Source: Candidatus Yanofskybacteria bacterium
GTDB lineage: Bacteria > Patescibacteriota > Minisyncoccia > 2-02-FULL-40-12 > IGHO2-12-FULL-4
Direction: 5' to 3'
Length of the DNA: 60,112 nucleotides
Assembly: GCA_016181105.1 (NCBI GenBank)
Contig: JACOZX010000018.1
Coordinates: 1 to 60,112, forward strand
Both the position numbers and the translations under genes were made by a program. Shown one piece after another: positions 14,408 to 54,458 of the stretch; within the stretch, counting starts at the first letter, position 1; every line of letters begins with the position of its first letter. The notes below the pieces were generated by a model that saw nothing but the letters and a program-made list of their open reading frames with translations, made no database searches and had not been told where the DNA came from.

Positions 14408-14481
14408 GAACCTCCGCAAGTGCCTCTTTTTTGCGTCGGACTGTCGCCGCCGAACTGCAAAAGAGGCACTTGCTTTGGTTC
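14408..14481 (-). repeat. B-type hairpin element (copy 3, reverse orientation)
   Basis: The stem GAACC..GCAAGTGCCTCTTTT / AAAAGAGGCACTTGC..GGTTC encloses the conserved loop, the reverse complement of GCAGTTCGGCGGCGACAGTCCGACGC. Confidence 0.8.
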
Positions 14482-14507
14482 TAAATAAAATCTTTTTTCG
14501 CGGAGGT

Positions 14508-14963: not shown

Positions 14964-15011
14964 TCCAAGGAGGCTCCTTGGACGGTTTTAAGCTCCTTGG
15001 ACGGTTTTAAG
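14964..15011 (+). repeat. REP-like palindrome TCCAAGGAGGCTCCTTGGA plus a 20-bp tandem duplication at the 3' end of the transposase gene
   Basis: The palindrome spans 14964-14982. CTCCTTGGACGGTTTTAAG is repeated at 14974-14992 and 14993-15011. The second unit encodes the C-terminus LKTVQGA. Confidence 0.8.
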
Positions 15012-15650
15012 CCTTAACCAATCTTTGTGAAAGTCAGAAAAGTCCTTCCTGTTCTTAAAATAATCTGGAAACTTTTCCAGACTTAAAATCGCTTTTTCAA
15101 CTCTTTGCTTGCCCAGATAATCTAAGGAACTTGAGTATTTGTAATTTTCAGCAAATGCTAGTGTTTTTTTGGTATCAATGATCCCGTTTTCTTTCCAACT
15201 TGGCTCAAGAACCTTCACTGGGTTAAGGTGAATGTACGCTAGTAAATATTTTAAATATCTGTCGTTGTCGACATGCTCTGCTTTAAAAGGCTTTTGAAAC
15301 AGTGAGCCAACGCGTTCATATTTTTTATTAAAATACATTGCGTAACTAGTTGTGAGTTTCTTCATAAAATTTGTAAGTCCGCCTTCTTTTATTTCTTTAA
15401 CTAAAATATGAAAATGATTAGGCATCAAAACATAAGCCCCAACAGCAATCAGTCTCTCCCCCAAACCTACCTTATCCAAGGAGGCTCCTTGGGAGGTTTT
15501 AAAAACAACAGCTTTTGTTCCGTTTGCTAACCGTAGCGTCTTAGAAAACCTTTCGTAGTCCCTTGTCTCCTGAAATATTTTTCTCTTTTCAACACCACGG
15601 TTGTAGACATGGTAATATTCACCTACTGCGAATTTAATTTTGCGCTCCAT
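14988..15650 (-). CDS. IS200-like Y1 (HUH) transposase, REP-associated (RAYT-like)
   Basis: 220 aa with YHVYNRG, MPNHFHILV (HUH) and YIHLNPVK (catalytic Tyr region). It is flanked by copies of the same palindrome. Confidence 0.8.
   Translation of the reverse strand: MERKIKFAVGEYYHVYNRGVEKRKIFQETRDYERFSKTLRLANGTKAVVFKTSQGASLDKVGLGERLIAVGAYVLMPNHFHILVKEIKEGGLTNFMKKLTTSYAMYFNKKYERVGSLFQKPFKAEHVDNDRYLKYLLAYIHLNPVKVLEPSWKENGIIDTKKTLAFAENYKYSSSLDYLGKQRVEKAILSLEKFPDYFKNRKDFSDFHKDWLRLKTVQGA
15475..15492 (+). repeat. REP-like palindrome copy inside the transposase CDS
   Basis: TCCAAGGAGGCTCCTTGG, translated as part of KTSQGASLDKV. Confidence 0.75.
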
Positions 15651-15679: not shown

Positions 15680-15717
15680 TCCAAGGAGGCTCCTTGGATA
15701 CGGCTCTTTGGATACGG
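15680..15717 (+). repeat. REP-like palindrome copy upstream of the transposase start, with a short tandem repeat
   Basis: TCCAAGGAGGCTCCTTGGA is followed by TACGGCTCTTTGGATACGG. Confidence 0.8.
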
Positions 15718-21506: not shown

Positions 21507-21516
21507 AAGTAGTTTT

Positions 21517-21699
21517 AAGTTTGGATGATTATTACTTTTTCCGGACGTTCGTTTTCCCCAGCGAGGAAAACTTCACTCGTTGCAGTCTGTGGATTCCCGA
21601 CCAGAGTCGGGACATAGCCATCGATGGCTATGCAACCTGCCTGTCGGCAGACAGGTCCACAGCCTGCAGCGCCTACAAAAGCAATAATCATCCAAACTT
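21517..21699 (+). ncRNA. A-type structured element, copy 1 (unclassified ncRNA or structured MITE)
   Basis: A 23-bp closing helix with one mismatch. The conserved core is TTTTTCCGGACG..CCAGCG loop..GCAGTCTGTGG/CCACAGCCTGC, with three internal hairpins. Confidence 0.7.
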
Positions 21700-21705
21700 A
21701 TTCCA

Positions 21706-31297: not shown

Positions 31298-31442
31298 CTT
31301 GAAAAATGGCCTGATTATAGTATTAAGTTTAGCATAGATTTTTGGTTGAGGCAAATGAGGAGGGGGGGGGAAGCTTCGCTAATGTTACTTTTTCCGATTA
31401 ATTGTGCGACTTATGTTTGTGAGATATAATTATATGCATGCC

Positions 31443-31507
31443 CCGTAGTGAAAACTCGAGACACTGCGGAGCAGTCAAACTAATTAACACTCGAGTTTCT
31501 ACTACGG
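31443..31507 (+). promoter_or_regulatory. 18-bp-arm hairpin in the xer leader that overlaps the Shine-Dalgarno sequence
   Basis: CCGTAGTGAAAACTCGAG..29 nt..CTCGAGTTTCTACTACGG (16/18 paired). The right arm runs into GGAGG-ATG at 31506-31515, and a TATAAT lies at ~31425. Confidence 0.5.
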
Positions 31508-31512
31508 AGGAT

Positions 31513-32372
31513 GGCAGACATTAAGCAACTCAAAAACGATTTTCTGGAGTATCTGGAAATAGAGAAAAACCGTTCGCCGAAGACGGTGGAAAATTACGGA
31601 CATTATCTTAACCGGTTTTTGAATTTTGCATCTGACAGATAGTCATGGCGAATCCTTAAAAAAAGTTACTCAAAACTACCATATCATCGCCATCCGCGCT
31701 TTTTTGAAATATTTATCAAAAAGGGAAATTAAGTCTGTCTCGCCTGAAAAAATAGAGCTGGGCAAGCAAGAAGATCGGCATATTGATTTTTTAGAGTCAA
31801 ACGAATTGGCAAGACTTCTTGCTTCGCCAAAAGGCGATGACCTGCCCAGTCTGCGCGATAAAGCTATTTTGGAAACTTTATTCAGCACCGGCTTGCGTGT
31901 TTCGGAACTTTGCTCTTTAGAAACGGACAAGGTGGACTTGAACAGGGGAGAGATATCTGTCAAAGGCAAGGGCTCTAAAATCAGACTGGTCTTTTTATCA
32001 GACGATGCCCAAAAAGCAAACCGGGCATATTTGAAAAAACGCAGCGATGCCGATACCGCGTTTTTTATTCGGATTCCCAAAGATCAAAGATTTGGTAAAT
32101 ATGAAAACCTGGGACTAACTCCCCGCAGCGTGCAAAGGATAATAAAAAAGCACGCAACGCGCGCCGGAATTGTCGGTAAAAAAGTCAGTCCGCATTCTCT
32201 TCGCCATAGCATGGCCACCGACCTTCTAAGAAACGGCGCCGATATTCGCTCCGTTCAAGCAATACTCGGCCACTCATCTGTTACCACAACTCAAATCTAC
32301 ACTCATGTAACCGACAGCGGATTGAAAGAGGTACACAAAAAGTATCATAAAAATAAAGTCACCGAAAGTTAA
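31513..32372 (+). pseudogene. XerC/XerD-family tyrosine recombinase with an interrupted N-terminal core-binding domain
   Basis: MADIKQLKNDFLEYLEIEKNRSPKTVENYGHYLNRFLNFASDR stops at a TAG near 31642. The rest continues in another frame from ~31626 (LHLTDSHGESLKKVTQNYH..). The catalytic residues are intact (LRVSEL, HSLRHS, GHSS, IYTHV). Confidence 0.7.
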
Positions 32373-32846: not shown

Positions 32847-33506
32847 TTAGGCGGCGGCCGTCAGCGAGGCCGGGCGGATTTTTTTGGTCGCCTTGATCTT
32901 ATCGATCTCGGCAACCGTGAAGCCCAGCGCCTGCAAAATTCCGCAGGCGACACCCCGATTTACGAGACCCTTCTTCTGCTCGGCCAGCTCAATGCGAGCG
33001 GCCCGAATCAGGGAAAAAAGAGAGTCTACGTTGTCCTGCGCCGATTCCGACTCCAAAGCTGTGATAACTGCCTCGGCACCGAACAGGGAAACTGCAAAGG
33101 AGGCGATTTGAGGCAAGCTGTTGAACAGCTGCCACATGTCGCTGTCAACTTCCTCTGCCTCGAACTTCGCCATGTGGTAGGCGATAGCCAACAGGTTGGG
33201 GTTCTGGACGATGGGTTGCACGATGTTAACCCCTTCCTCAACTGCCCCGACCAAAGTCTCGGCCGGAAGTATGTCGGTGGAATCGTAACGGTCATCGGCT
33301 ACCAGACCGGCCAGCTCGTCGATGGAAAGATACGGGCGACCAAAAGTATTCTTGGCCTCCATCTCTTTGGCTGACTCCTCCTCTTCTCGAACCTCTGGCA
33401 TGAACTCGTCGGTAAAAAAAACTGCAGGCTTTCTGAGTTCGGGGCGAGTCGGGTGATTTACAAAAATTCCGCCCAACTCTTCCTTGACAGTCACCATATT
33501 TGACAT
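32847..33506 (-). CDS. hypothetical acidic protein (GC-rich island 2)
   Basis: ~219 aa with a start after GAGGTG. Its composition is sensible, unlike the Arg/Gly-rich opposite-strand ORF. Confidence 0.5.
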   Translation of the reverse strand: MSNMVTVKEELGGIFVNHPTRPELRKPAVFFTDEFMPEVREEEESAKEMEAKNTFGRPYLSIDELAGLVADDRYDSTDILPAETLVGAVEEGVNIVQPIVQNPNLLAIAYHMAKFEAEEVDSDMWQLFNSLPQIASFAVSLFGAEAVITALESESAQDNVDSLFSLIRAARIELAEQKKGLVNRGVACGILQALGFTVAEIDKIKATKKIRPASLTAAA

Positions 33507-33669
33507 AAACACCTCACAAAAAAACTTTGTTGAAAGTTAACTACAAGTTTTCAAATTTCTATACTCTAATTATACCAAATTTTGACCACTTTTGTCAATG
33601 GTTCGGCGAACTTGCCACTAACAACCAAAAAAGCCTATTTTTAAGGCTTTTTTGGAATATCTAATTTTA

Positions 33670-33871
33670 GAGCTTGGGCGAATAATGCTTTTGTAGGCTC
33701 TGTAAGCTGTGGATTGCTCGCGAGCCGCTTTTTCAGCCCATTCAGCAGAATAAGATGAAAAAGTGGCGAGCTGGTCGGAAAGTATTCTTTCCGAATCCAT
33801 AGCTTACAAAGAGCGAGCTTTTTCGCTGGAAAAAAGCGAGCGTCCGGAAAAAGCATTATTCGCCCAAGCTC
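33670..33871 (-). ncRNA. A-type structured element, copy 3
   Basis: The closing helix is GAGCTTGGGCGAATAATGCTTTT/AAAAGCATTATTCGCCCAAGCTC. It has the same core as copies 1 and 2, with compensated stems. Confidence 0.7.
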
Positions 33872-34763
33872 AACTCTTCAACTCTTCTATCCCATCAGCC
33901 AATCTTACCGTCGGCTTCCAGCCAAGAAGTTTCTTGGCCAAACTAATATCAGCCAAAGTTAATCTAGCTTCTCCTTTTCTTGGCGCAATAACTTTTGTTT
34001 TACTCCCAATCATTTTTGCTACTTCAACAACCGAATGATTTTCCCCACTGCCGATATTTATGACTTCTCCTTTGCCGACTTTGCTTGACTTCATAGCCGC
34101 AAGATTGGCGGCGACCACATCTCGGACATGAGTAAAATCTCTCCTCTGTTTGCCGTTAGGAACTATGGTCAGCGGCTGGCCGGCTTTGTTTTGCTTTAGA
34201 AAAATTCCGATTACAGTAGCATAAGCGTCTTCGCAAGTTTGCCTCGGACCATAGACATTAAAATATCTCAAACAAACAACCGGCAATCCATAGAGATGAT
34301 TGAAAAGTTGGCAGTACATCTCGCCCATGTATTTTTGCATGGCATAAGGATTGAGGGGATTGGCAATCATATCTTCCCGTAAGGGCATGGTTTTTTGCAG
34401 GCCGTAAGCCGAAGAAGAAGCAGAGTATATAAATTTTTTAACGCCGGCTTCTTTGGCGGCAAGCAAAACATGCAAGGTGCCGGTTAAGTTTGCATCGTGA
34501 GAAGTTTTTGGATCTTTGATTGAAGGCTGGATTCTGGGCTGGGCGGCTAGGTGAAAAACAACTTCGGCTTTTTTGAAGATGGGCCTGATTTTGTCCAGAT
34601 CAACAATGCTTAAATTGTGAAATTTGGCCTTGGGGTTGAGGTTTTCTTTTTTTCCAGTTGAGAGGTTGTCTATGACATGAATGTCCTTGTGGCCTTGCTT
34701 GACCAACTCATCAACCAAATTTGAGCCGATAAACCCGGCTCCGCCGGTAACAATGATTTTCAT
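33870..34763 (-). CDS. NAD-dependent sugar-nucleotide epimerase/dehydratase (SDR family)
   Basis: MKIIVTGGAGFIGSNLV and the catalytic-type YAMQKY. Confidence 0.85.
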   Translation of the reverse strand: MKIIVTGGAGFIGSNLVDELVKQGHKDIHVIDNLSTGKKENLNPKAKFHNLSIVDLDKIRPIFKKAEVVFHLAAQPRIQPSIKDPKTSHDANLTGTLHVLLAAKEAGVKKFIYSASSSAYGLQKTMPLREDMIANPLNPYAMQKYMGEMYCQLFNHLYGLPVVCLRYFNVYGPRQTCEDAYATVIGIFLKQNKAGQPLTIVPNGKQRRDFTHVRDVVAANLAAMKSSKVGKGEVINIGSGENHSVVEVAKMIGSKTKVIAPRKGEARLTLADISLAKKLLGWKPTVRLADGIEELKS

Positions 34764-34787: not shown

Positions 34788-34849
34788 GCGAGTATGCCTG
34801 TTTCTTGCGCCGGACTGTCGCCGTCGAACTGCGAAACAGGCATACTCGC
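34788..34849 (-). repeat. B-type hairpin element (copy 4, reverse orientation)
   Basis: The stem GCGAGTATGCCTGTTTC/GAAACAGGCATACTCGC surrounds the loop, the reverse complement of GCAGTTCGACGGCGACAGTCCGGCGC. Confidence 0.8.
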
Positions 34850-49533: not shown

Positions 49534-49599
49534 GAGGCCGGAAAAGAGGCCGTAATTGATTACTGCTTTTAACAAAAACAACGAAAGAGATTTTAATTA

Positions 49600-49672
49600 G
49601 AACCGAAGCGAGCGCCTCTTTTGCAGTCGACGGCGACAGTCCGACGCAAAAAAGAGGCGCTCGCGAAGGTTC
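49600..49672 (+). repeat. B-type hairpin element (copy 1)
   Basis: GAACCGAAGCGAGCGCCTCTTTT-GCAGTCGACGGCGACAGTCCGACGC-AAAAAAGAGGCGCTCGCGAAGGTTC. Confidence 0.85.
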
Positions 49673-50671: not shown

Positions 50672-50699
50672 ATGTCAACAAGGAAACCAATTTTAGTTA

Positions 50700-50838
50700 G
50701 AACCGAAGCGAGCGCCTCTTTTGCAGTTTCTCGTCGAAGGTTCCGATCGGCCGAATCCGAAGGATTCATAGCCGATAAATCGGAATCGATGTTGGCGGCG
50801 ACAGTCCGAAGCAAAAAAAGAGGCGCTCGCGAAGGTTC
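50700..50838 (+). repeat. B-type hairpin element (copy 2) with an ~85-nt extra insert in the loop
   Basis: The arms match copy 1. The loop additionally carries nested hairpins (GAATCC-gaa-GGATTC, CCGAT-aa-ATCGG). Confidence 0.85.
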
Positions 50839-51868: not shown

Positions 51869-52218
51869 TAATTACAATGAAAAAAAATAAAAATCAGGAC
51901 GGTCAGATATTGATTTTCGCTATGATTATTCTGGGTATCATGGTTTTGACAGCCATATCTTTACAGGCAATTCTTATCCCCAAGTTGAGACTGTCTGCTG
52001 AAGTGAAAAATTCAGTCGGCGCGGCTTTTGCGGCAGAAAGCGGTTTGGAGTGGTGTTTGTACAACAACCAAGTTTCACCATCACCCACGCCCTGGCCTCC
52101 ACCGGTTATGGCCAACGGCGCGACATTTCAGGTTACACCGGCCGACTGCAGTGGAACCAATTTGAAATCAACGGGGACATACAGGGGGGTAGTCAGATCT
52201 TTTGAAGTTAACTTTTAG
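51865..52218 (+). CDS. PilX-like small membrane-anchored pilus protein
   Basis: 117 aa with DGQILIFAMIILGIMVLTAISL. Confidence 0.5.
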   Translation: MIITMKKNKNQDGQILIFAMIILGIMVLTAISLQAILIPKLRLSAEVKNSVGAAFAAESGLEWCLYNNQVSPSPTPWPPPVMANGATFQVTPADCSGTNLKSTGTYRGVVRSFEVNF

Positions 52219-52221
52219 CTA

Positions 52222-54458
<2,237 letters not shown>

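What the first reader, a model, noticed from the sequence alone, without database searches (positions are those of the whole stretch)
33670..33871. Copy 3 of the structured element on the opposite strand, abutting the epimerase stop codon
This is the most diverged copy and the main source of the compensatory substitutions. It lacks the CCTGTC/GACAGG module present in copies 1 and 2, which supports that module being a separable insertion. Its right arm overlaps the stop codon of the gene at 33870..34763 by 2 nt, so it would be co-transcribed as a 3' UTR structure. The ORFs predicted inside the three copies share FFPDARF..KLALC.LWI only because the nucleotide core is conserved.
Basis: seen in the sequence. 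Interest (0 to 1): 0.65.

Follow-up and report, generated by a model that had tools for sequence, protein, structure and literature searches.

The report
Mobile branched-hairpin repeat of Patescibacteria
The 202-base stretch after the epimerase gene is one copy of a previously uncatalogued family of hairpin-forming repeats that have spread between the genes of tiny groundwater bacteria; it is not a protein gene and matches no catalogued RNA family.

Summary
Window 33670-33871 (minus strand) is a 202-nt element with a perfect 23-bp closing stem. It is homologous to copies at 21516-21700 and 52222-52448, and its first two bases lie in the epimerase stop codon.

It belongs to a larger family. About 30 further copies (80-260 nt) were recovered from groundwater metagenomes and Patescibacteria MAGs. 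All are intergenic, and they occur in both orientations.

A 63-pair branched structure is strongly supported: 96% of cells are paired, and 36 pairs show double changes against about 23 in shuffles. The interior is conserved (75% pairwise identity). The closing arms diverge (48%) but stay complementary.

Presence is patchy at five orthologous gene junctions, and near-identical copies sit at unrelated loci, so it behaves as non-autonomous mobile DNA.

Copy 3 lies between the epimerase stop codon and an intrinsic terminator, so it is probably transcribed as a 3' UTR hairpin. No RNA data exist to confirm this.

G·U and A·C mismatches are equally frequent. The pairing constraint is therefore strand-symmetric, not clearly RNA-specific.

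A small protein is refuted. There is no Rfam match, and no transposase or target duplication was identified.

Verdict: a new variant of the ERIC/Correia/REPIN kind of bacterial repeat.

The parts
33670..33871 (-). Copy 3 of the branched-hairpin repeat element (202 nt). 'Forward' orientation is the strand carrying TTTTTCCGGACG.
   Evidence: (nhmmer E = 4e-53)
33849..33871 (-). 5' arm of closing stem P1 (GAGCTTGGGCGAATAATGCTTTT). Its first 2 nt are the last 2 nt of the epimerase stop codon.
   Evidence: helices 1-2 covary
33670..33692 (-). 3' arm of closing stem P1 (AAAAGCATTATTCGCCCAAGCTC), perfectly complementary to the 5' arm.
33813..33848 (-). Invariant junction TCCGGAC followed by hairpin P2' (GCTTTTT/AAAAAGC, conserved loop TCCAGCG).
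   Evidence: 3 of 9 pairs with double changes, 95% paired
33795..33811 (-). 5' strand of helix P3 (CTTTGTAAGCTATGGAT).
   Evidence: helix 5 (7 covarying pairs)
33698..33714 (-). 3' strand of helix P3 (ATCCACAGCTTACAGAG).
   Evidence: helix 5
33776..33793 (-). Hairpin P4 (CGGAAAGAATACTTTCCG), a short version of a swappable module. It is longer, with ATTATAC, in most relatives. It is CCCGAC..GTCGGG in copies 1 and 2 and CCCCCTTCGGGGG in the orthologous copy L116.
33717..33771 (-). Long arm P5/P6 with the conserved motif CTTATTC..GAATGGG, which contains an invariant tandem U·G on the forward strand.
   Evidence: helices 7-8 (12 covarying pairs; UG:19 of 19 at two pairs)
33870..34763 (-). NAD-dependent epimerase/dehydratase gene (297 aa). 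The stop codon TGA is at 33870-33872.
   Evidence: (Pfam Epimerase and related families)
33625..33655 (-). Intrinsic-terminator-like hairpin (12-bp stem plus T tail) 14 nt downstream of the element. It probably ends the epimerase transcript.
33569..33598 (-). Perfect sigma-70-type promoter (TTGACA, 18-nt spacer with TG, TATAAT; 12 of 12 matches) for the next gene (32847..33512).
21516..21700 (+). Copy 1 (185 nt). It lies 9 nt from the start codon of the divergent YraN-like gene and upstream of the promoter of the M23 peptidase gene.
52222..52448 (+). Copy 2 (227 nt). It fills the gap between a pilin-like gene (stop at 52218) and ligA (start at 52458).
21636..21655 (+). 20-nt hairpin module CCTGCCTGTCGGCAGACAGG inserted into GCAA|TCCACAG in copy 1.
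52384..52403 (+). The same 20-nt module in copy 2.
31371..31397 (+). Possible remnant of a fourth copy: a left-arm-like AAGCTTCGCTAATGTTACTTTTTCCGA. It lies in the rpsO-xerC spacer, where the syntenic relative L049 carries a full copy. Low confidence.

Best explanation
Copy 3 belongs to an undescribed family of non-autonomous, palindromic mobile elements. They are about 160-260 nt long, with deletion derivatives of 80-130 nt. They colonise the short intergenic junctions of groundwater Patescibacteria close to Candidatus Yanofskybacteria.

Each element has four features:
- A conserved, asymmetric interior: junction TCCGGAC, loop TCCAGCG, GGATTC, CTTATTCG/CGAATGGG and GCAATCCACAG.
- Several nested hairpins.
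- Swappable hairpin modules.
- A closing stem of 20-27 bp whose sequence drifts quickly but stays Watson-Crick complementary.

Shown:
- The elements are multicopy and always intergenic, and they occur in both orientations.
- They are present or absent at orthologous gene junctions.
- Near-identical copies sit at unrelated loci.
- They can supply the stop codon or the last codons of the upstream gene.

Inferred:
- Because they sit inside operons and 3' UTRs, they are transcribed passively with the host genes. Copy 3 would run epimerase mRNA, then element, then terminator, and would fold into a very stable branched hairpin.
- The folded DNA or RNA hairpin with its conserved interior is what an unidentified mobilising or binding protein recognises. 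This would explain why pairing is kept on both strands equally.

Any effect on the host, such as 3' end protection, RNase III processing or uncoupling of neighbouring cistrons, would be secondary and is untested.
For: 1. Family and copy number.
- A core-pattern scan found true members in 4 loci of two MAGs and in about 25 metagenome loci.
- nhmmer found several copies per contig, for example three in L097.
- Two MAG contigs end inside identical copies.
- Contig depth laid on the element is 120-640, against 5-57 on the flanks. Many different loose ends run into unlike sequence.

2. Structure.
- 63 pairs; 96.1% of cells are paired.
- 36 pairs show double changes, against 23.3 ± 2.0 in shuffles.
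- The covariation score is 0.407, against 0.147 in shuffles and at most 0.078 when partners are slid.
- Hairpin P2' covaries as well.

3. Mobility: patchy presence at orthologous junctions.
- polA|next gene: the two genes overlap by 4 nt in the window, but are separated by a 224-nt element in L013. PolA is 67% and the next gene 57% identical between the two.
- Epimerase 3' end: element present in the window and in L116-118; absent in L119-121.
- pilin|ligA: present in the window; absent in L122 and L124.
- rpe|pfkB: present in L039 and L059; absent in L122.
- rpsO-xerC: present in L049; only a possible remnant in the window.
- Copy 1 is 92.6% identical, arms included, to L091, which has different flanks.
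- Both orientations occur between co-directional genes.

4. Constraint.
- The orthologous copies in the window and L116 are 86.6% identical, against 61% at four-fold degenerate sites of the adjacent epimerase gene.
- Interior pairwise identity is 75%; the arms are 48%.

5. Transcription context of copy 3: stop codon, then element, then terminator, then promoter.

6. Not coding. Not in Rfam. Not in viral contigs.
Against: - No transposase, no autonomous parent element and no target-site duplication were identified. The flanks give no consistent direct repeat.
- Unlike classical MITEs, the terminal repeats are the least conserved part.
- None of the absent sites is a clean empty site. The spacers differ, so some absences could be losses or replacements.
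- The slow evolution of orthologous copies and the invariant unpaired nucleotides fit a host-selected function at least as well as a selfish element.
- Concerted evolution by gene conversion was not excluded.
- Transcription is inferred only from promoter and terminator consensus matches. No RNA-seq data exist.
Confidence: 0.62

Rival explanations
1. It is a host-selected functional structured RNA: a cis-acting mRNA element such as a processing, stability or protein-binding site, or conceivably a ribozyme. The conserved interior would be the active part and the closing stem would only need to pair. Mobility would be incidental or ancient.
For: - The interior is far better conserved than the closing stem (75% against 48%).
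- Many unpaired nucleotides and a tandem U·G are invariant.
- Orthologous copies evolve more slowly than synonymous sites (86.6% against 61%) and show compensatory changes in P2'.
- The structure is complex, with multiple branches.
- Copies sit in transcribed positions.
- These genomes are very compact, so 200 nt of junk should be costly. This last point is an inference.
Against: - Copies occur in both orientations relative to co-directional flanking genes, about 15 same-sense to 8 antisense.
- G·U and A·C cells are equal on the mRNA-sense strand (14 against 14). One-sided changes are rare next to double changes. A helix selected at the RNA level should favour G·U.
- Flanking genes are functionally unrelated.
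- The element is absent from 22 kb of a close relative and from orthologous junctions.
- There is no match to any Rfam family or ribozyme model.
Confidence: 0.2
2. It is a REPIN-like single-stranded-DNA element mobilised by a Y1 (IS200/IS605 or RAYT-type) transposase such as the one encoded in the window at 14988..15650. The hairpin would fold in ssDNA at the replication fork and be cut and pasted without target duplication.
For: - The window encodes a Y1_Tnp homologue, 44% identical to a Pfam-annotated Y1_Tnp protein of L124.
- Pairing is Watson-Crick only and strand-symmetric.
- No target duplication is visible.
- REPINs also form long hairpins with compensatory changes 'in ssDNA or mRNA' (PMC3116915).
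Against: - The window's Y1 gene is flanked by a different small hairpin, CCAAGGAGGCTCCTTGG, found only there. No copy of this element is next to it. The Y1 gene of L124 is flanked by yet another hairpin.
- REPINs have conserved ends and a variable spacer. This family shows the reverse.
- No conserved GTAG-type REP head and no conserved left-flank target tetranucleotide is seen.
Confidence: 0.1
3. The 'compensatory' pattern is a neutral by-product. These would be decaying palindromes kept perfect by DNA-level quasipalindrome correction, meaning template switching or intrastrand mismatch repair in extruded hairpins, with no selection on structure at all.
For: - The stems are almost purely Watson-Crick. 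G·U is about as frequent as A·C, and there are very few one-sided intermediates.
- One derivative (L077, 4713-4634) is a perfect 29-bp palindrome in which the left-arm motif TTTTTCCGGA has been copied onto the right arm.
Against: - The asymmetric interior (TCCGGAC opposite GCCTWC, the tandem U·G and recurrent mismatches) is conserved and is not 'corrected' to symmetry.
- Sequence conservation exceeds that of synonymous sites.
- The process does not explain dispersal to new loci.
Confidence: 0.06
4. The copies encode a small protein (FFPDARF..KLALC.LWI).
For: ORFs of 71-77 aa overlap each window copy.
Against: - Copy 1 uses another frame for the first third.
- The frame is free of stops in only 2 of 21 family members, and no frame is consistently open.
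- Variable columns are spread evenly over codon positions: 34 of 45, 32 of 46 and 29 of 46.
- Modules of lengths that are not multiples of 3 come and go.
Confidence: 0.01

Closest known systems
ERIC / IRU elements of Enterobacteriaceae and Vibrio (established knowledge, not re-tested here)
   Same: - An imperfect-palindrome repeat of 100-250 nt.
- Confined to intergenic regions inside or next to transcription units, in either orientation.
- Size variants arise by insertion or deletion of internal blocks at fixed points.
- The mobilising enzyme is unknown.
- Copies are conserved between species.
   Different: - There is no sequence relationship, and the host phylum is different.
- This family is longer and multibranched.
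- It has an invariant asymmetric core and a fast-drifting closing stem.
Correia / NEMIS elements of Neisseria (established knowledge)
   Same: - A short non-coding element with terminal inverted repeats.
- Inserted between genes and co-transcribed into a long hairpin.
- It can change the 3' or 5' ends of neighbouring transcripts.
   Different: - Correia elements have conserved 26-bp terminal repeats and a TA duplication. Here the terminal repeats are the least conserved part, and a TA duplication could not be shown.
- The scans found no internal promoter here.
REPINs mobilised by RAYT transposases (Bertels and Rainey 2011, PMC3116915)
   Same: - Hairpin-forming, non-autonomous and long-lived.
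- Compensatory changes keep the hairpin, which is predicted to fold in ssDNA or mRNA.
- The window also encodes a Y1 transposase.
   Different: - REPINs have two conserved REP ends and a variable spacer. This family has a conserved interior and variable ends.
- The local Y1 gene is flanked by an unrelated hairpin.
Rickettsia palindromic elements (RPE) (established knowledge)
   Same: - Palindromic repeats that thrive in a reduced genome.
- They can contribute codons to host genes. Here they supply the stop codon or the last codons of the epimerase (window, L116) and of polA (L013).
   Different: RPEs often insert in frame inside genes. Every copy seen here is intergenic.

Membership tests
MITE (miniature inverted-repeat transposable element) | Short (under about 600 bp) and non-coding | tested here: met
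   Lengths are 83-257 nt. No conserved reading frame.
MITE (miniature inverted-repeat transposable element) | Terminal inverted repeats | tested here: met
   Near-perfect terminal stems of 20-27 bp in 25 elements. However, their sequence is poorly conserved (48% pairwise).
MITE (miniature inverted-repeat transposable element) | Multicopy, dispersed, with insertion polymorphism | tested here: met
   Searches show copy number. Searches show presence or absence at five orthologous junctions. One search shows a 92.6% identical copy at an unrelated locus.
MITE (miniature inverted-repeat transposable element) | Target-site duplication of fixed length | tested here: inconclusive
   Many copies end TA..TA, but this is part of the palindrome. 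Copy 3, L074 and L076 lack it. No clean filled and empty pair was available.
MITE (miniature inverted-repeat transposable element) | A related autonomous IS with the same ends | not testable with these tools
   None was seen in about 0.84 Mb of fetched loci.
REPIN / RAYT system | RAYT (Y1 transposase) gene flanked by copies of the same repeat | tested here: not met
   The window's Y1_Tnp gene (14988..15650) is flanked by CCAAGGAGGCTCCTTGG hairpins, not by this element.
REPIN / RAYT system | Two conserved inverted REP ends separated by a variable spacer | tested here: not met
   The pattern is the opposite: ends 48% and interior 75% pairwise identity. The REPIN description is from PMC3116915.
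Any Rfam 15 RNA family, including self-cleaving ribozymes, 6S, Y RNA and the large ncRNAs | Covariance-model score at or above the gathering threshold | tested here: not met
   Only three tRNAs pass in the window. With E up to 5-10 on copy 3, copy 2 and L059, no family recurs and none comes near its threshold.
Intrinsic (Rho-independent) terminator | GC-rich hairpin followed directly by a T tract | tested here: not met
   The closing stem of copy 3 is followed by TAAAATTAGA. The scan places the terminator 14 nt further downstream, at 33655-33625.
Small protein gene | Conserved open frame with third-position variation | tested here: not met
   the frame is open in 2 of 21 elements, and variability is equal across codon positions.
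Cis-regulatory leader or riboswitch | Fixed orientation upstream of functionally related genes | tested here: not met
   Both orientations occur, and the neighbours are unrelated: epimerase, ligA, polA, pfkB, xerC and an M23 peptidase.

The most novel reading that the evidence does not exclude
The conserved, asymmetric, multibranched interior is a new class of functional nucleic-acid fold. It would be an RNA, or a single-stranded DNA, recognised by a dedicated Patescibacteria protein or carrying catalytic (self-processing) activity. It would spread as a mobile module, and its host genomes would retain it because it does something for the neighbouring transcripts.
Probability: 0.2. Interest if true: 0.8.

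Novelty: new variant of a known kind. Interest (0 to 1): 0.5.

Why it matters
Patescibacteria (CPR) have some of the smallest and most gene-dense bacterial genomes, and almost nothing is known about their non-coding DNA or mobile elements. This work defines a repeat family that:
- occupies the short gaps between their genes;
- rewrites stop codons and gene spacing;
- breaks metagenome assemblies;
- shows an unusual evolutionary signature: an invariant core, a fast-drifting closing stem, and stems that stay paired as nearly pure Watson-Crick (about 4% non-standard cells).

The family gives a handle for finding the enzyme that moves it. It also provides a marker for strain-level comparison of these uncultured organisms, and a candidate structured RNA or ssDNA to test biochemically.

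There is a methodological caution too. Abundant 'compensatory substitutions' alone do not prove an RNA function when the element is a DNA palindrome found in both orientations.

Tried and rejected
- **Wasted scan.** The first collection scan (genome contigs) used a pattern whose gap was too short for the window's own copies. Most of its 46 hits were chance.
- **Strand by mismatch type.** A count of isolated 1x1 mismatches suggested the reverse strand was the functional RNA strand (24 A·C against 9 G·U). The reverse strand also folds 3.6 kcal/mol better on average. The alignment-based, orientation-aware count showed no asymmetry (14 against 14). The forward strand carries an invariant tandem U·G. 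The strand question is left open.
- **Internal promoter.** The conserved TATAAT on the reverse strand of the P4 module was not picked up as a promoter.
- **Arms from the target.** I considered that the arms derive from a palindrome at the target site. This is rejected: the empty polA junction has no such palindrome, and the arms travel with the element (copy 1 against L091).
- **Link to Y1/RAYT.** Not supported.
- **Clean empty sites for a target duplication.** None was found. The orthologous spacers are unrelated or rearranged.
- **RNA-seq.** No run could be listed for copy 3 or for L059.
- **Read laying.** The first read-laying run failed.
- **Literature.** Searches for CPR or Patescibacteria MITEs, palindromic repeats and structured RNAs returned nothing relevant.
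- **Not attempted.** I did not build a covariance model. The model would be about 215 positions long, and nhmmer plus RNAalifold already answered the questions.

Full report
**1. The observation**

Window 33670-33871 read on the minus strand is a 202-nt sequence. Its first 23 nt (GAGCTTGGGCGAATAATGCTTTT) are perfectly complementary to its last 23 nt. It folds far better than shuffled controls on either strand: -103.8 kcal/mol (z = -11.4) on the minus strand and -109.5 kcal/mol (z = -12.2) on the plus strand.

Repeat finding and alignment link it to 21516-21700 (+) and 52222-52448 (+). A core pattern taken from the three copies occurs three times in the window, against 0.00 expected. A profile built later from the family finds exactly these three full copies.

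- Copy 3 is the most diverged of the three, at 74-76% identity against 87% between copies 1 and 2.
- The hairpin CCTGCCTGTCGGCAGACAGG is found only in copies 1 and 2.
- The epimerase stop codon TGA (33870-33872) shares two bases with the element.

**2. It is a family, not a local triplet**

A metagenome scan with the core pattern returned 69 loci. About 25 of them carry the full family core. A mis-designed genome scan still recovered four loci in two MAGs. No viral contig matched.

Twenty-five complete elements could be delimited. They are 83-257 nt long, each with a closing stem of 20-27 bp. nhmmer found further copies, often several per contig.

Two MAG contigs end inside identical copies, which marks a repeat that breaks assemblies. 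When contigs of the source groundwater runs are laid on the region, depth over the element is 120-640 against 5-57 on the flanks. Many loose ends run into unlike sequence.

The best-named relatives of the window's LigA are Candidatus Yanofskybacteria MAGs, the closest at 83% identity. The host is therefore a Parcubacteria-type member of the Patescibacteria. One MAG is labelled Saccharibacteria, but its PolA is 67% identical to the window's. I do not claim a wide phylogenetic span.

**3. Anatomy**

In the orientation that carries TTTTTCCGGACG ('forward'; the minus strand for copy 3), the parts run as follows:
- closing stem P1;
- invariant junction TCCGGAC;
- hairpin P2' with the conserved loop TCCAGCG;
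- a long helix P3 (..TTGYRRGCTGTGGAT / ATCCACAGCYYRCAG..);
- a swappable hairpin P4;
- a long arm P5/P6 with the invariant CTTATTCG..CGAATGGG, which contains a tandem U·G;
- GCAATCCACAG;
- GCCTWCAAAAG, returning into P1.

On a 20-sequence alignment, RNAalifold predicts 63 pairs. The counts on that structure are:
- 96.1% of cells are standard pairs, against 81.5% in shuffles.
- 36 pairs carry double changes, against 23.3 ± 2.0 in shuffles.
- 190 cells carry double changes, against 56 in shuffles.
- The covariation score is 0.407, against 0.147 in shuffles and at most 0.078 when partners are slid by 1-3 columns.

RNAalifold mis-registered P2'. On an ungapped sub-alignment, P2' has 3 of 9 pairs with double changes and 95% pairing.

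The interior is much better conserved than the closing arms (75% against 48% mean pairwise identity).

Modules come and go:
- the 20-nt CCTG..CAGG hairpin in copies 1 and 2;
- long and short forms of P4;
- deletion derivatives of 81-130 nt in L063, L077 and L088.

**4. Not coding, not a known RNA**

The 'FFPDARF' frame is free of stops in only 2 of 21 elements, and no frame is consistently open. Variable columns are spread evenly over the three codon positions.

Rfam 15 gives only three tRNAs in the window at gathering thresholds. Permissive searches on copy 3, copy 2 and a relative gave nothing recurrent or near threshold.

**5. Behaviour as mobile DNA**

All copies are intergenic, typically 1-20 nt from the neighbouring stop or start codon. 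They occur in both orientations: the upstream gene is on the same strand in 24 cases and the opposite strand in 17; for the downstream gene the counts are 21 and 13.

Presence is patchy at orthologous junctions:
- (a) polA|next gene. In the window the two genes overlap by 4 nt (ATGA). In L013 a 224-nt element separates them and supplies polA's last three codons and its stop.
- (b) The epimerase 3' end carries the element in the window and in L116-118 (87% aa identity). It is absent in L120/121 (87%) and L119 (78%).
- (c) pilin-like|ligA is filled in the window. L122 and L124 have an unrelated 92-nt spacer there, and 22 kb of L122 holds no copy.
- (d) rpe|pfkB is filled in L039 and L059 but not in L122.
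- (e) rpsO-xerC is filled in L049. The window keeps at most a 27-nt piece that looks like a left arm.

Copy 1 is 92.6% identical, arms included, to L091, which has different neighbours. The arms therefore travel with the element and are not derived from the target.

Decay by deletion is visible. In L116 the right half of the element and most of the next gene are gone.

I could not define a target duplication or find an autonomous parent.

**6. Constraint**

Between the window and L116, the orthologous copies are 86.6% identical over 134 aligned nt. Four-fold degenerate sites of the adjacent epimerase gene are 61% identical. Over the same interval P2' changed by two compensatory double substitutions, and P4 was replaced by another hairpin.

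This means either purifying selection on the element or concerted evolution with other copies.

**7. RNA or DNA?**

The context of copy 3 is tidy: epimerase stop, element, intrinsic terminator (33655-33625), a perfect sigma-70-type promoter (33598-33569), then the next gene. Copy 2 lies inside an apparent operon, with no promoter or terminator signal between the genes. Copy 1 lies next to the start of a divergent gene. No RNA-seq run could be found to test this.

The pairing constraint is not RNA-like, for these reasons:
- Non-standard cells are few.
- In copies whose forward strand is the mRNA sense strand, they are as often A·C as G·U (14 against 14).
- One-sided (G·U-type) changes are rare next to double changes.

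An apparent reverse-strand bias did not hold up in the alignment-based count (24 against 9 isolated mismatches; 3.6 kcal/mol mean advantage). It is also opposed by the invariant forward-strand tandem U·G.

The simplest reading is that complementarity is maintained at the level of the palindromic DNA. It would act either as a hairpin or cruciform substrate for a protein, or through quasipalindrome correction. L077 contains a derivative in which the left-arm motif was copied onto the right arm to give a perfect 29-bp palindrome. The asymmetric interior is nevertheless held constant, which argues for sequence-specific recognition.

**8. Comparison with known systems**

The element works like the ERIC, Correia, RPE and REPIN type of bacterial intergenic palindromic repeat. 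It meets the MITE criteria of size, terminal inverted repeats, copy number and insertion polymorphism. Target duplication and an autonomous parent remain unshown.

It fails both REPIN criteria that could be tested. The window's Y1 transposase gene is flanked by a different hairpin. The conservation pattern is also the reverse of a REPIN's conserved ends and variable spacer (PMC3116915).

Literature searches found no description of such an element in CPR or Patescibacteria.

**9. Verdict**

It is best explained as one copy of a new family of non-autonomous, branched-hairpin mobile elements of Patescibacteria that are passively co-transcribed (confidence about 0.6).

The main rival is a host-selected functional structured RNA (about 0.2). 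The conserved interior and the slow evolution of orthologous copies keep it alive. Orientation-aware statistics on many more copies and strand-specific RNA data would decide between the two.

Interest is moderate. The kind of element is familiar. Its host group, its architecture and its pattern of a conserved core with drifting but paired arms are new.

Noticed in passing
window 14408-14497, 34795-34842, 49577-49672, 50677-50737: A second family of palindromic repeats. It has a conserved core GCG(T/C)CGGACTGTCGCCG(C/T)CGAACTGC inside a closing stem that differs between copies but stays paired (CTCTTTT/AAAAGAG against CTGTTTC/GAAACAG). Two copies fold with z of about -6.5. One copy sits between tRNA-Arg and the epimerase start, so the epimerase gene is bracketed by two different hairpin elements. 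Like the main family, it has a T-run followed by CGGAC.
   Followed up: partly
window 14988-15650 (-), with hairpins at 14965-14981, 15476-15492 and 15681-15697: A Y1 (IS200/IS605 or RAYT-type) transposase homologue, 44% identical to a Pfam Y1_Tnp protein of L124. It is flanked on both sides by the palindrome CCAAGGAGGCTCCTTGG. A third copy of the palindrome lies inside the gene. The palindrome occurs nowhere else in the window or in the fetched loci.
   Followed up: partly
window about 31441-31510: A roughly 70-nt hairpin (CCGTAGTGAAAACTCGAG...CTCGAGTTTCTACTACGG; -28.7 kcal/mol, z = -5.8). It sits between the xerC promoter-like region and the start codon, and it is absent from the syntenic relative L049. 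It looks like a third kind of palindromic insertion.
   Followed up: partly
window 31511-32372: The xerC-like tyrosine recombinase is split into two ORFs (31511..31642 and 31626..32372). The relative L049 has one intact 318-aa ORF (about 308 aa counted from the shared MADVKQ start). About 22 codons near the N-terminal domain are missing or frameshifted. This is either a pseudogene or an assembly error.
   Followed up: no
L077 4634-4713 and 5945-6025 (minus strand): Two 81-83-nt mini-derivatives of the element, with identical arms and in direct orientation, bracket a gene of about 1.1 kb on the opposite strand (not identified here). One of them is a perfect 29-bp-stem palindrome in which the left-arm motif has been copied onto the right arm.
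   Followed up: no
L116 3886-4150 (also L117): In the relative with 87% epimerase identity, a deletion joins the middle of the orthologous element to the last 50 or so codons of the neighbouring 221-aa gene. The epimerase ORF there reads five codons into the element (..SLVE*).
   Followed up: yes
all family members, forward strand; window 33813-33826 in copy 3: The loop and 3' strand of P2' (AGCGAG) can alternatively pair with the invariant CTCGCT just downstream. The result is a terminator-like hairpin followed by CTTTG, which the terminator scan flagged in L114. This pairing is mutually exclusive with the covarying P2' and shows no covariation of its own.
   Followed up: partly
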